Of a DNA stretch of 64,000 bases, positions 6,260 to 10,229 are shown one piece after another. Position 1 is the first letter of the stretch. The number at the start of each line of letters is the position of its first letter. A program made the position numbers and the translations under genes. The notes beneath the pieces were generated by a model. That model made no database searches and was not told the origin of the DNA. It was given only the letters and a program-made list of their open reading frames with translations. Origin of the DNA: the human T2T-CHM13v2.0 reference genome, Homo sapiens. Where the stretch lies: assembly GCF_009914755.1 (NCBI RefSeq), contig NC_060943.1; one strand, given 5' to 3'.

Positions 6260-7269
6260 CCCATACCAGTAACCCGGGCAACAGAATGCAGATAAAGGAC
6301 AGAAGACAAAAGGCGCAGGTTCTGACACATTCTTTGCTTGTGTCATCAGCTAGCAAGTATTCACAGGCACATCCAACCTCCATCCTTACATTCCACAAGG
6401 ATTTGAGTGTCTGTTATAGGCAAGGGACAGTGCTAGGTTTTTTTTTCTAAAAACAAACTTGGGGCTGGGCATGGTGGCTCACACTTGTAATCCTAGCACT
6501 TTGGGAGGCCAAAGCGGGTGGACTGCCTGAGCTCAAGAGTTCGACAACTCTTGGTAACGTGGTGAAACCCCGTCTCTGCCAAAAATACAAAAAATTAGCC
6601 AGATGCAGTGGCGTGCACCTGTGGCCCAGCTTCTCGGGAGGCTGAGGTGTGAGGATCACTTGAGCCCGAAAGGTGAAGGCTGCAGTGGGCCGCGATTGCA
6701 CCACTGAACTCTAGCCTGGGCAACAGAGTGGGACCCTGTCTCAAAACAACAACAACAAAATAAGAAAGAAAGAAAGAAAAAGCGGAAGTGAGAGATGGAT
6801 GTGTGTGTAGTCGTGTGGGATAATTGCCCATGGGAAGGAAACAGAATTCAACCTCTTGGAATGTAGGGGGAGGAGGAAGCCTGAAAAAACTGTTCAAATT
6901 TGGATTCTGGGCTGAGCACAGTGGCTCACGCCTGTAATCCCAGCACTTTGGGAGGCAAGGCAGGCGGATCTCTTGAGGTTCGGAGTTCGAGACTAGCCTG
7001 GCCAACATGGTGAAACCCTGTCTACAAAAAATACAAAAATTAGTCGGGCGTGGTGTTGCACACCTGTAATCCCACTACTTGGAAGGCTGGGGTAGGAGAA
7101 TCACTTGAACTAGGGAGGCAGAGGTTGCAGTGAGCTGAGATCGCACCACTAAACTCCAGCCTGGGTGATAGAGCAAGACTCTGCCTCAAAAAAAAAAAAA
7201 TTGGACTCTGGGTGAAATAAGTCTGTTGGGGACAAAATCTGGTGGGAGACCCAGAAGGTCAAGCTGCTT

Positions 7270-7440
7270 TAGAAAGAGCTCAACCACTGACTTTCCTCTT
7301 TTTGACCACATGACTCTTCCAGGTATAAAAGCCTGCCGTTGGTGGAAAAGGAAAAGGTGGTCCAGTTAGACAAGATGCCACCGGCTTCTGAAACCAGACA
7401 TCTTTGAAAACCCACCCATCTACCTGCAGGAAAAGGCAAG
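7270..7440 (+). promoter_or_regulatory. FFAR2-paralogous promoter and exon-1 module of unit 1 (E-box CACATG 7307, TATAAAA 7324, GC donor 7436)
   Basis: 7286-7334 aligns ungapped to 48925-48973 at 34/49. E-box-to-TATA offset is 17 nt in both. Donor is AAAG|GCAAGG. Confidence 0.8.
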
Positions 7441-8451
7441 GGACCTGACCTCGCCTGGGCTCAGGGAAGAGGTTGCTGGGATCATAACCCCAGGAAGAGA
7501 CGGGATGGAAGGAGAGCATGCAGGGAGCAGAGGACAGGCTACTCTCCAAGGAGGAGAGGGAAGAGGCCACAGAAATGGAAAAGGGGCCAGGACAAGTCAG
7601 TGGAGAGATGGTCAGGGCCTGGCGAGGAGGAGCAGGACAAAAGCGGTGGAGCTCAGCCCCGTGGCGGCAGGGCCACTCCCATTCATCTGGTCCTCTACTT
7701 CTGAAGTTCTCGAATGCAGAATGAGATGTACAGATGGGCCAGCAGGTGATATGCTATCTGTCATAGGTTAAGGCCTCATTATTTTATTCATTTTTAAACT
7801 TTTTTTTTTTTGAGACCGGGTCTTGTTCTGTCGCCCAGGCTGGTTTGCAGTGGTGCCACCATGGTTCACTGTAACCTTGAAGCCCCTGGGCTCAAGTGAT
7901 CCTCCTGCCTCAGCCTCCAGAGTAACGAGGACTACAGGTGCACACCGCCATGCCCAGCTAATTTCTTAACGTTTTGTAGAGAAAGGCTCTCACTGTGTTG
8001 CCCAGGCTGGTCTTGAACTCCTTGACTCAAGCAATCCTCCTGTCTTGGCTTCCCAAAGTGTTGGGATTACAGGTGTGAGCCACTGCTCCCAGCCACAAGT
8101 TTTATTTTAAATGTTTACCTTTCAATGATCACTTCGAGGAGATTTAAGCTTACTCTTTCTTTTTTTTTTTTTTCTTGAGATGGAGTCTTGCTGTGTCGTC
8201 CAGGCTGGAGTGCAGTGGTGCTATCTTGGCTCACTGCAACCTCTGCCTCCCAGGTTCAAGTGATTCTCCTACCTCAGCCTCCCGAGTAGCTGAGACTACA
8301 GGCATGTGCCACCACTCCCGACTAATTTTTGTATTTTTAGTAGAGTCGGGGTTTCACCATGTTAGCCAGGTTGGTCTCGAACTCCTGACCTAAAGTGATC
8401 TGCCTGCCTCAGCCTCCCAAAGTGCTGGGAGGCATGAGCCACCATGCCTGG

Positions 8452-9317
8452 CTCATTGTCTAGTTTTTACCAAGAAGACGATGAGATATGCCAGAGGGCT
8501 CCGTATCTGCTATGAGAACGTCCCCCAAGAGCAGCTGGCCGTGGTGCTGCAGCTGGAGCTGTGCTTGGAGCTCTTCTTCACCCCCATGGCGGTCACCACC
8601 TTCTGCCACTGGCACTTTGTGCAGATCATGCTCTCCTGGCCCCAAGTGGGGACCTGGAGGTGCTGAAGAGCCAAGAGACTGGCTGCCGTGACCCTCTTCA
8701 ACTTCCTGGTCTGCTTGGACCCTGTGCTTTGTCTCCCGTGGTGGGTTCCCCCAGTGGAAGAGTCAAATTGGTGGGCAGGCGCAGTGTTGTTCAGTGCTCT
8801 CGATGCTGCATTGACCCCTTGATTTTCTTTGTTTTTGTTTTTATTTTGTTTTGTTTTGTTTTTGAGATGGAGTCTCGCTCTGTCACCCAGGCTGGAGTGC
8901 AGTGGTGTGATCTTGGCTCACTGCAACCTCCGCCTCCTGGGTTCTCCTGCCTCAGCCTCCCGGGTAGCTGGGATTACAGGCACCCACCACCACACCCGGC
9001 TAATTTTTGTATTTTTAGTAGAGACGAGGTTTCAACCCCTACTCAGGCTGGTGTCAAACTCCTGACCGCAAGTGATCTGCCCACCTTGGCCTCCCAAAGT
9101 GTTGCAATTACAGGCGTGAGCCACCATGCCCAGCCTAACCCCTTGATTTTCTGTTTCTCTTCCTCCACCGTGCGCAAAGCCTTTGACAGAGGGCCACGGA
9201 GGTGGCAGCACGGCGGGGGTCTCACTGTCTGGGTGGTGGTGAAAGCTCTGGAGAGCCAGCTGCAGAGAGAAGATGTGGATCTTAGGGACGGCCAATGTCA
9301 CCTTCACAGGAGATTAG
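8452..9317 (+). pseudogene. FFAR2-like pseudogene, unit 1 (end of TM4 to C-terminus), Alu-interrupted
   Basis: Translates as [69 protein letters not shown] / [10 protein letters not shown] / [19 protein letters not shown] ... NVTFTGD*. FFAR2 has TCYENFTDNQLDVVLPVRLELCLVLFFIPMAVTIFCYWRFVWIMLSQPLVG...DPLLFYFSSSVVRRAFGRG...SDFTTE*. Stops at 8461 and 8664, frameshifts near 8716 and 8812, Alu at 8829-9135. Confidence 0.95.
8829..9135 (-). mobile_element. AluS-type element inserted into the TM7 DPxxF codons of pseudogene unit 1
   Basis: Full Alu with 17-bp TSD T(G/A)ACCCCTTGATTTTCT at 8812-8828 and 9136-9152. Confidence 0.95.
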
Positions 9318-10229
9318 AGGCGCCAGCTTGGGGTAACCTTTTGGGGAAGGAGGGCTCAAAAAGAGGAACAATGAAACAGAACTAAGGTGAGTTCTCCTGT
9401 GCCCAGTTTCAGAGGTCAAGGAGAGTAGTAGATAGCTCAAACCCAACTCAGCCATTGAGTGAGTGTTTTCATTTTGTTCCTTGGGGTCTATGATATTTTC
9501 TATTTTCTTTTCTTTCCTTTTGTTTTGGTTTGTTTGTTTGGTTGGTTGGTTGGTTGGTTTGTTTTAGAGACAGGGTTTCCCTCTGTCACCCAGGCTGGAA
9601 TGCAGTAGTGTGATCACATCACACTGCAGCTTCTAACTCATGGGTTCAAGCCATCCTCCTGCCTCAGCCTCCTGAGTAGCTGGGACTCCAGGTGCACGCC
9701 ACCATGGCCGGCTAATTGTTTATTTTTTATAGAGACAGGGTTTCACTATGTTGGCCAGGATGTTCAACAACTTCTGCCTTCAAGCGATCTTCCCTCCTGG
9801 GCTCCCCAAGTGCTGAGTTTACAAGCATCAGCCACCACACCCAGCCTATGACATTTTCTTCATTATGGCTGGTACTGCCTCATGGTAAGCCACAAGCCTT
9901 TTTATCTTGTAATATCAGAGTCTTGGAATTCTTTATCTTCCCTACTCTATATCTAGAAGACAGTAGCACTGACTTATCTGCTGCAGAGCTCTTAATTCTA
10001 TCCTTGGCCCCGATTCAGAAAAGGGGGTTCCTCATGCTGGATCTGAACAACCCAGCACAGGCAAGTCTGGGGAGCAAGGCAGGAGCCTGCATGTGGACTC
10101 AAAGGACCGGCACCCGAAACAAAGCAGTGGCTGGCACAGGTGGACAAACCAGGCAAGAAAAGCAACTGTCCTTCGGAGCAGAGTCCACGTGATGGGAAGA
10201 AACAGGTCATGATACTTTTGAGTGGTTAC

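What the first reader, a model, noticed from the sequence alone, without database searches (positions are those of the whole stretch)
6778..9392. Unit 1 keeps an apparently intact promoter and splice donors: candidate transcribed pseudogene / lncRNA
Seen: consensus TATAAAA (7324), E-box CCACATGAC 17 nt upstream as in FFAR2, GC donor AAG|GCAAG (7435), a PU.1-type AAAGCGGAAGTG at 6779-6790, and a perfect donor AAG|GTGAGT at 9386 just past the dead CDS. Inference: the promoter outlived the CDS and may drive a spliced non-coding RNA co-regulated with FFAR2, or act as an enhancer. I recall a lncRNA (LINC01531) annotated upstream of FFAR2; whether it overlaps this unit needs checking.
Basis: partly seen in the sequence, partly recalled or inferred. 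Interest (0 to 1): 0.7.

Follow-up and report, generated by a model that had tools for sequence, protein, structure and literature searches.

The report
Lost fatty-acid receptor inside LINC01531
This stretch is the broken remnant of a likely second short-chain fatty-acid receptor gene that tarsiers, pigs and elephants still carry intact; in humans it is copied into the known non-coding RNA LINC01531, and its old promoter likely now serves pigment cells rather than working alongside FFAR2.

Summary
All motifs are present at the stated coordinates and are inherited from an FFAR2-type promoter (leave-one-out profile E 5e-29). 'Intact promoter' is overstated. Core identity to FFAR2 (31/45) is no higher than in the dead CDS, there is no initiator at FFAR2's spacing, an Alu splits the proximal promoter, and the acceptor partnering the 7435 donor is deleted. 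RefSeq LINC01531 starts upstream, splices in one base before the TATA box, and uses neither donor. Transcription of the dead CDS is already published (melanoma qPCR amplicon 8716-8799). Not found in my searches: trees place the remnant in a eutherian 'FFAR2-like' clade (support 100; nearest tarsier), intact in many mammals and with no monkey or ape member among the hits. It is likely a unitary pseudogene, not an FFAR2 duplicate (AU tests mixed: p 0.005-0.08). Its E-box is not FFAR2's CACGTG but a 10/11 MITF M-box. The gene is on a MITF-BRG1 co-bound list and is BRG1-dependent, but is absent from the shMITF lists. A published LCL eQTL study lists the locus as an enhancer lncRNA with FFAR2 (id recalled) among five targets, probably from a start about 7 kb upstream. 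Use of this TATA box is untested.

The parts
6345..6419 (+). LINC01531 (NR_040046.1) exon 1; annotated start; its donor is also GC type (TAG|GCAAGG)
   Evidence: hub annotation; boundaries read; single-copy in genome search
6779..6790 (+). PU.1/ETS-like motif at the end of an Alu tail; not shown to be homologous to any FFAR2 site
6820..6918 (+). upstream piece of the old proximal promoter, aligns to FFAR2 48755-48858 (62/90)
6908..7201 (+). Alu inserted in the proximal promoter
7202..7776 (+). remnant of core promoter, non-coding exon 1 and 5' part of the intron of an FFAR2-type gene
   Evidence: nhmmer E 3e-9 to FFAR2; leave-one-out profile E 5.1e-29; alignment
7286..7322 (+). branch-point-like ACTGAC, pyrimidine tract and CAG of the old promoter, used as the exon 2 splice acceptor of LINC01531
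   Evidence: RefSeq boundary 7322|7323; branch-point label is inference from consensus
7305..7315 (-). M-box-type element AGTCATGTGGT (10 of 11 to the MITF M-box AGTCATGTGCT); positional homolog of FFAR2's GTCACGTGG
   Evidence: only AGTCATGTG in the window; M-box sequence from PMC4964517 passage; upstream copy U0 shares ACATGACTCTT
7324..7330 (+). TATA box, homologous to FFAR2's 48963; lies inside LINC01531 exon 2; no initiator at FFAR2's spacing
7323..9884 (+).
   Evidence: hub annotation
7433..7441 (+). GC donor homologous to FFAR2's exon 1 donor; its own acceptor is deleted; unused in NR_040046.1
7782..8461 (-). two antisense Alus at the site where the intron's 3' part, acceptor, start codon and codons 1-~150 are missing
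8469..8822 (+). dead CDS, first surviving piece (about aa 152-270); in-frame TGA at 8664-8666, frameshifted stretch, Arg180 position reads Gln
8716..8799 (+). qPCR amplicon used for LINC01531 in melanoma stem cells
   Evidence: primers in PMC7643105 mapped
8823..9137 (-). Alu inserted into the CDS with a perfect 15-bp target-site duplication
   Evidence: 6.6% from the window's Alu majority; median 6.0%
9138..9317 (+). dead CDS, last piece, with the FFAR2-like-type C-terminal tail and its stop (TAG 9315-9317)
   Evidence: tail identity 16/32 to tarsier FFAR2-like vs 8/32 to human FFAR2
9384..9392 (+). consensus GT donor in the old 3' UTR; unused in NR_040046.1

Best explanation
Unit 1 is the broken remnant of an FFAR2-type receptor gene, likely the human copy of the 'FFAR2-like' gene that is intact in many placental mammals, and it is transcribed as part of LINC01531; its inherited promoter core likely now works as a MITF-bound, BRG1-dependent regulatory element in pigment-lineage cells rather than as an FFAR2-co-regulated promoter. 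Shown: homology, breaks, exon overlap, use of the old pyrimidine tract as a splice acceptor in the RefSeq model, the M-box sequence. Reported in papers at gene level: melanocytic expression, BRG1 dependence, MITF-BRG1 co-bound listing. Inferred: loss in the anthropoid lineage after the tarsier split and by the main Alu wave; that the MITF site is this M-box; that it acts as an enhancer or alternative start. The identity of the remnant deserves about 0.85, the MITF step about 0.5.
For: Identity: the 11 best tblastn scorers against U1 among 121 proteins are FFAR2-like proteins (10 named, 1 unnamed that groups with them), tarsier first (210 bits vs 135 for human FFAR2); identity over 151 U1 columns 63% tarsier FFAR2-like vs 49% human FFAR2; 5 of 7 diagnostic columns match FFAR2-like, 1 FFAR2; U1 falls in the FFAR2-like clade in every tree, support 100/100, sister to tarsier at 76-84 in three of them; diagnostic C-terminal tail and stop; no anthropoid FFAR2-like among the 120 listed of 136 hits to the tarsier protein; U1 is the only one of 109 genome-wide matches with stops inside. 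Transcription: primers in the dead CDS; up in melanoma stem cells; log2FC 7.8 and 9.7 in uveal melanoma models vs normal uveal melanocytes; 18-fold difference among melanoma vesicles. Regulation: AGTCATGTG unique in the window; ENSG00000205786 listed twice among genes at MITF-BRG1 co-occupied sites and down after shBRG1 in 501Mel (log2 -3.08) and Hermes melanocytes (-1.82); the id's hg19 span covers LINC01531.
Against: The AU test of 'U1 with FFAR2' gave p 0.005 with four pieces (one 13-residue piece was partly misaligned) but 0.079 and 0.071 on cleaned rows, so it is not rejected there; U1 is a long, under-half-filled row; synteny of FFAR2-like with U1 was not tested beyond equal contig lengths in several species. 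The gene is absent from the 501Mel shMITF down (602 rows) and up (748 rows) lists and from the file of BRG1-bound regulated genes. The co-bound list has no coordinates and draws on 5,867 sites; other TCATGTG/CACGTG boxes lie in the locus. Normal uveal melanocytes express far less than tumours. M-box+TATA occurs 218 times genome-wide vs 129 for the reversed control. Not in the melanoma lncRNA table of PMC6934268 although neighbours are (file cut when stored). No initiator; no evidence of selection on the core.
Confidence: 0.5

Rival explanations
1. Same origin, but the promoter motifs are inert fossils. LINC01531 is driven from upstream starts (6345, and about window 250 in a dispersed LTR-like repeat); the old core matters only as a splice acceptor.
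For: RefSeq start 6345 and acceptor at 7322; the gene model's cDNA is a testis clone, FLJ46220; published locus start hg19 35890413 maps to about window 249, inside a repeat with 1025 candidate copies; no initiator, core not better conserved than the dead CDS, survival compatible with neutrality; not in shMITF lists.
Against: MITF-BRG1 co-bound listing and melanocytic expression fit a near-perfect M-box that is unique in the window; the annotated 5' ends come from testis and general annotation, not from melanocytes.
Confidence: 0.33
2. One reading: the promoter still fires in FFAR2-expressing cells (myeloid, gut, fat), makes a spliced RNA from the 7435 and 9386 donors and is co-regulated with, or enhances, FFAR2.
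For: Positional conservation of box, TATA and GC donor; PMC8803168 lists the locus as an LCL enhancer lncRNA; its splice variant rs35138704 goes with lower splicing, lower lncRNA and lower expression of five joint-eQTL targets, one of them ENSG00000126262 (FFAR2 by recall).
Against: FFAR2's essential -58..-33 element (XBP1 site) maps to 48934-48959 and holds CACGTG, whose ACGT core U1 lacks; PU.1 mutation did not affect FFAR2; the acceptor for 7435 is deleted; neither donor is used in RefSeq; that paper defines enhancer lncRNAs by a 5' end within 500 bp of an enhancer and the listed 5' end is about 7 kb upstream; FFAR2's id is in none of the melanoma lists that hold the lncRNA. The position of rs35138704 could not be found.
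Confidence: 0.12
3. Unit 1 is a primate-era duplicate of FFAR2 itself that died at birth.
For: Mismatches to FFAR2 are spread evenly over codon positions (21, 19, 23 of 92 each); cleaned AU tests do not reject 'U1 with eutherian FFAR2' at 0.05.
Against: AU p 0.0004 for U1 with human and tamarin FFAR2; FFAR2-like tail and diagnostic residues.
Confidence: 0.05

Closest known systems
LINC01531 / ENSG00000205786 / LOC100128682 (NR_040046.1)
   Same: It is this locus: annotated spliced lncRNA covering the unit; reported as an LCL enhancer lncRNA (PMC8803168) and as melanoma-expressed.
   Different: None of the passages I read describes it as a receptor-gene remnant or names its promoter.
FFAR2 (GPR43) gene and promoter (PMC4311239)
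   Same: Two-exon layout, box 17 nt before a TATA, GC donor after a non-coding exon 1.
   Different: Box is CACATG (M-box type), not CACGTG; no initiator; Alu in the proximal promoter; CDS half deleted; protein remnant closer to FFAR2-like than to FFAR2.
Eutherian 'free fatty acid receptor 2-like' genes (e.g. tarsier P0105, galago P0110, pig P0097, elephant P0113)
   Same: Same clade, same C-terminal tail; they keep H140, R180, H242, R255 in 19 of 19 rows, residues named as ligand-binding in PMC4453067.
   Different: They are intact predicted proteins; U1 is broken. No functional study of mammalian FFAR2-like turned up in the search listings.
lncRNAs that arose from lost protein-coding genes, e.g. 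XIST from LNX3 (recalled, not from a call)
   Same: A dead coding gene's sequence and regulatory DNA survive in a spliced lncRNA.
   Different: No function of the RNA is shown here; exon 2 is largely Alu; the annotated start is not the old promoter.
GPR42 (primate duplicate of FFAR3, PMC4531286) and chicken FFAR2 expansion (PMC4453067)
   Same: Tandem duplication in the FFAR cluster.
   Different: GPR42 is young and near-intact; the chicken copies are a separate expansion; U1 is an old eutherian paralog, now dead.

Membership tests
Unitary (unprocessed) pseudogene of FFAR2-like | homology to a coding gene with disabling lesions | tested here: met
   5' half missing, in-frame TGA, frameshifts, Alu insertion
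Unitary (unprocessed) pseudogene of FFAR2-like | keeps promoter and intron (not retroposed) | tested here: met
Unitary (unprocessed) pseudogene of FFAR2-like | intact ortholog in other species (phylogeny) | tested here: met
   FFAR2-like clade, support 100; AU p 0.005, 0.079, 0.071
Unitary (unprocessed) pseudogene of FFAR2-like | intact ortholog at the syntenic position | not testable with these tools
   no mammalian genomes held; only equal contig lengths for FFAR2 and FFAR2-like in several species
Unitary (unprocessed) pseudogene of FFAR2-like | no working copy of the same ortholog in human | tested here: met
   genome-wide search with FFAR2: nothing open between FFAR2 (100%) and FFAR3/GPR42 (45-46%); 121 of 316 candidates scored
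TATA/initiator Pol II promoter | TATA box | tested here: met
   7324-7330
TATA/initiator Pol II promoter | initiator about 30 nt downstream | tested here: not met
   purine run at offsets 28-33; first YR at 35
TATA/initiator Pol II promoter | capped 5' ends (CAGE) at the site | not testable with these tools
   annotated starts are upstream; no CAGE data on hand
FFAR2-type XBP1-driven promoter | CACGTG/ACGT element at -58..-33 | tested here: not met
   U1 has CACATG; element from PMC4311239; that the XBP1 site is this box and needs ACGT is inference and recall, the figure was not seen
MITF M-box target | M-box sequence | tested here: met
   10 of 11 to AGTCATGTGCT
MITF M-box target | MITF occupancy at the motif | tested here: inconclusive
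   gene listed twice among MITF-BRG1 co-bound, no coordinates
MITF M-box target | expression falls on MITF knockdown | tested here: not met
   absent from shMITF lists at that paper's cut-off; present in two shBRG1-down lists
Enhancer-associated lncRNA (PMC8803168) | 5' end within 500 bp of a CAGE- and DNase-marked enhancer | tested here: inconclusive
   locus is listed, but the listed 5' end maps to about window 249, not to unit 1

The most novel reading that the evidence does not exclude
Monkeys, apes and humans lost a second FFAR2-type short-chain fatty-acid receptor that most placental mammals keep, and its promoter, with its native M-box and TATA, was taken over as the MITF-driven start of a melanoma lncRNA that also tunes the FFAR/CD22/DMKN neighbourhood in cis.
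Probability: 0.25. Interest if true: 0.75.

Novelty: new member of a known kind. Interest (0 to 1): 0.5.

Why it matters
It gives an annotated, melanoma-expressed lncRNA an origin and a testable control element. It also points to a little-studied mammalian receptor: pigs, carnivores, squirrels, elephants, galagos and tarsiers have predicted FFAR2-like proteins with the ligand-binding residues intact, while no anthropoid or mouse-like rodent member appeared in my searches. Gene-loss screens referenced on human or mouse could therefore miss it (inference), and short-chain fatty-acid signalling in livestock may differ from human. The lncRNA, its splicing and its enhancer-lncRNA listing are already known.

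Tried and rejected
Unmasked self-BLAST was swamped by Alus; repeated with a mask. Rfam: 0 matches in 1-21000. No paired SOX10-type motif in 5900-7800 with my patterns. Supplement searches without hits: PMC10055147 (the current main text also has 0 mentions), PMC10598242, PMC6934268 by name and by coordinates, MITF peak coordinates in PMC4407272, SNP positions near the splice sites in PMC8803168 (underscore-joined ids may not be matched, so uninformative); rs35138704 in 0 papers. First IQ-TREE run timed out. Homology of LINC01531's last exon to the FFAR3/GPR42 3' end is weak when tested leave-one-out (E 0.027) and is not claimed. The 172-aa ORF 8867-9385 starts in an Alu and is not treated as a protein. 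Structure prediction and prokaryote or viral collections were not used, as they do not bear on the question. Supplements of bioRxiv preprints are closed, and figures (XBP1 site sequence; splice diagram of ENSG00000205786) could not be seen; both bear on the rival readings.
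Full report
Observation. Every motif is at the stated place. The box and TATA have the same 17-nt spacing as in FFAR2 (48946, 48963), and the 7435 GC donor aligns to FFAR2's exon 1 donor. The hub's annotation settles the overlap question: the unit lies in exon 2 (7323-9884) of LINC01531. That exon begins one base before the TATA; the old promoter's pyrimidine tract and CAG serve as its acceptor; the model starts at 6345 and uses neither 7435 nor 9386.

Anatomy. After masking Alus, unit 1 consists of a promoter/exon 1/intron-start remnant (7202-7776), two antisense Alus where the acceptor, start codon and about 150 codons are missing, and the 3' half of a receptor CDS (8469-9317) with an in-frame TGA, frameshifts and an Alu with a perfect 15-bp target-site duplication. 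It is one of several decayed copies: promoter homologs at about -22.2 kb, 19.0, 26.2 and 33.3 kb, and a CDS tail at 40.6-41.0 kb. A profile from five copies without unit 1 finds it at E 5.1e-29. Among 109 genome-wide matches to FFAR2 it is the only one with stops inside (121 of 316 candidates scored).

Is the promoter intact? The core is 31/45 identical to FFAR2, the aligned dead CDS 213/276; there is no pyrimidine-purine start at offsets 28-33 where FFAR2 has its start; an Alu sits about 120 bp upstream. One of five dead copies keeps the TATA. With assumed divergences of 0.12-0.23, one copy keeps TATA, CANNTG and GC with probability 0.22-0.04, and at least one of five with 0.7-0.2. Survival therefore does not show selection. 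The PU.1-type site abuts an Alu tail, and a loose version occurs 6 times in the window. The 9386 donor is the only perfect one on the + strand (0.27 expected) and has a look-alike in the dead copy at 40.85 kb.

What gene was it? A protein search with FFAR2 (120 of 422 hits listed) showed a second set of eutherian proteins 63-72% identical to human FFAR2, several on contigs of the same length as that species' FFAR2. Against unit 1 these score best, tarsier first. Over 151 columns unit 1 is 63% identical to tarsier FFAR2-like and 49% to human FFAR2; 5 of 7 diagnostic columns are FFAR2-like and 1 is FFAR2. Trees (49 rows; subsets of 23, 21 and 23) always place it in the FFAR2-like clade with support 100, sister to tarsier at 76-84, nearest tenrec. 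The C-terminal tail is 16/32 identical to tarsier FFAR2-like and 8/32 to human FFAR2, and ends at the same stop. AU tests are mixed: grouping with eutherian FFAR2 p 0.005 and with human+tamarin FFAR2 p 0.0004, whose row held one partly misaligned 13-residue piece; p 0.079 and 0.071 on cleaned rows. A search with the tarsier protein listed no anthropoid or mouse-like rodent FFAR2-like among 120 of 136 hits (90% clusters show one name each). The 19 FFAR2-like rows all keep H140, R180, H242 and R255; unit 1 has Gln at 180. The Alu inside the CDS is 6.6% from the window's Alu majority (median 6.0%, 56 Alus), which fits the main Alu wave; dates of roughly 35-45 million years for that wave and about 60 for the tarsier split are recalled. 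I infer loss in the anthropoid lineage. That a real gene lived here until then also explains why this copy kept more than its neighbours.

Is it transcribed, and where? Primers used for LINC01531 in melanoma stem cells (PMC7643105, passages) map to 8716-8799, inside the dead CDS. It is among the top 50 genes up in two uveal melanoma models vs normal uveal melanocytes (PMC10598242, passages), differs 18-fold among melanoma vesicles (PMC11080853, passages) and is named in a melanoma single-cell preprint (one passage). ENSG00000205786, whose hg19 span covers NR_040046, rests on a testis cDNA. The coordinate bridge was spot-checked: probe cg21622733 (PMC9668877, passages) lands on a CG at 9289 (the hg19-hg38 offset is recalled).

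Regulation. FFAR2's promoter depends on an XBP1 site within -58..-33, and mutating its PU.1 sites had no significant effect (PMC4311239, passages). That interval is 48934-48959 and holds GTCACGTGG. Unit 1 lacks the ACGT core; its minus strand reads AGTCATGTGGT, 10 of 11 to the MITF M-box (PMC4964517, one passage), the only AGTCATGTG in the window (0.5 expected). The upstream copy shares ACATGACTCTT, so the variant is old, not a new gain. In PMC4407272 (passages and supplement rows) the gene appears twice among genes at 5,867 MITF-BRG1 co-occupied sites, and falls after shBRG1 in 501Mel (log2 -3.08) and Hermes melanocytes (-1.82); it is absent from the shMITF lists and from the BRG1-bound-gene file, and no coordinates are given. 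The M-box+TATA pattern occurs 218 times genome-wide against 129 for the control. The locus is not in the melanoma lncRNA table of PMC6934268 (supplement search only, file cut). So MITF binding here is likely but unproven, and MITF dependence is not shown.

Link to FFAR2. PMC8803168 (section 8, passages, supplement rows) uses ENSG00000205786 as its example enhancer lncRNA in lymphoblastoid cells: splice variant rs35138704 goes with lower splicing, lower lncRNA and lower expression of five joint-eQTL targets, which by recall are CD22, MAG, GPR42, FFAR2 and DMKN. I could not locate the variant.

Novelty. The lncRNA, its transcription and its enhancer listing are known. I found no paper linking it to a receptor remnant or describing a lost human FFAR2-like gene: searches for LINC01531 (12 papers), FFAR2+pseudogene+duplication+GPR43 (6), FFAR2L (1), older ids (27), FFAR2-like/pseudogene/paralog terms (7) and FFAR2+unitary pseudogene/gene loss (10); most were seen as listings only, PMC4531286 and PMC4453067 as passages. 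GENCODE pseudogene tracks and subscription papers were not available. Verdict: a new member of a known kind (transcribed unitary pseudogene inside a lncRNA), interest 0.5.

Noticed in passing
window about -22300..-21850 (L004), 18850-19340, 26150-26690, 33270-33840, 40560-41000: At least five further decayed FFAR2-type units (four promoter remnants, one CDS tail) form an old tandem array between GPR42 and FFAR2; the 33.3-kb copy overlaps a RefSeq enhancer (33627-34826) and an antisense exon of LOC101927522.
   Followed up: partly
window 30880-31160, 37800-38150, 47150-47600; weakly 17460-17575: An element upstream of several units matches the 3' end of FFAR3 and GPR42 (E 4e-12 for the copy upstream of FFAR2), suggesting the duplicated block began at the FFAR3 3' end.
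   Followed up: partly
window 1-1060: LTR-like dispersed repeat (1025 candidate copies, best 76-80% identical) with TATAAAA at 934 and AATAAA at 1050, split by an Alu; the 5'-most published start of the LINC01531 locus maps into it. Family not identified.
   Followed up: partly
window 6419|6420: LINC01531's first intron also has a GC donor in this assembly; whether that is the reference allele or a variant such as rs35138704 is unknown.
   Followed up: no
window 8867-9385: 172-aa ORF starting in an Alu and running through part of the dead receptor frame; its stop ends one base before the 9386 donor junction. Probably the 'uncharacterized protein' of older Ensembl annotation.
   Followed up: no
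window 18856-18870: GGAAATGAAA, an ETS-IRF composite-like motif (label recalled), upstream of the 19-kb promoter copy.
   Followed up: no
window 20093-20118: AATAAA about 25 nt before the published 3' end of the ENSG00000205786 locus.
   Followed up: no
window 4497-4985 and 6082-6271: Local inverted duplicate (85-91% identical), the left arm split by an Alu, just upstream of the RefSeq start; two AP-1-type sites at 6090 and 6222.
   Followed up: no
proteins P0091, P0092, P0084: Goat and reindeer proteins sit between FFAR2 and FFAR2-like and move between trees; possible chimeras or gene conversion in ruminants.
   Followed up: no
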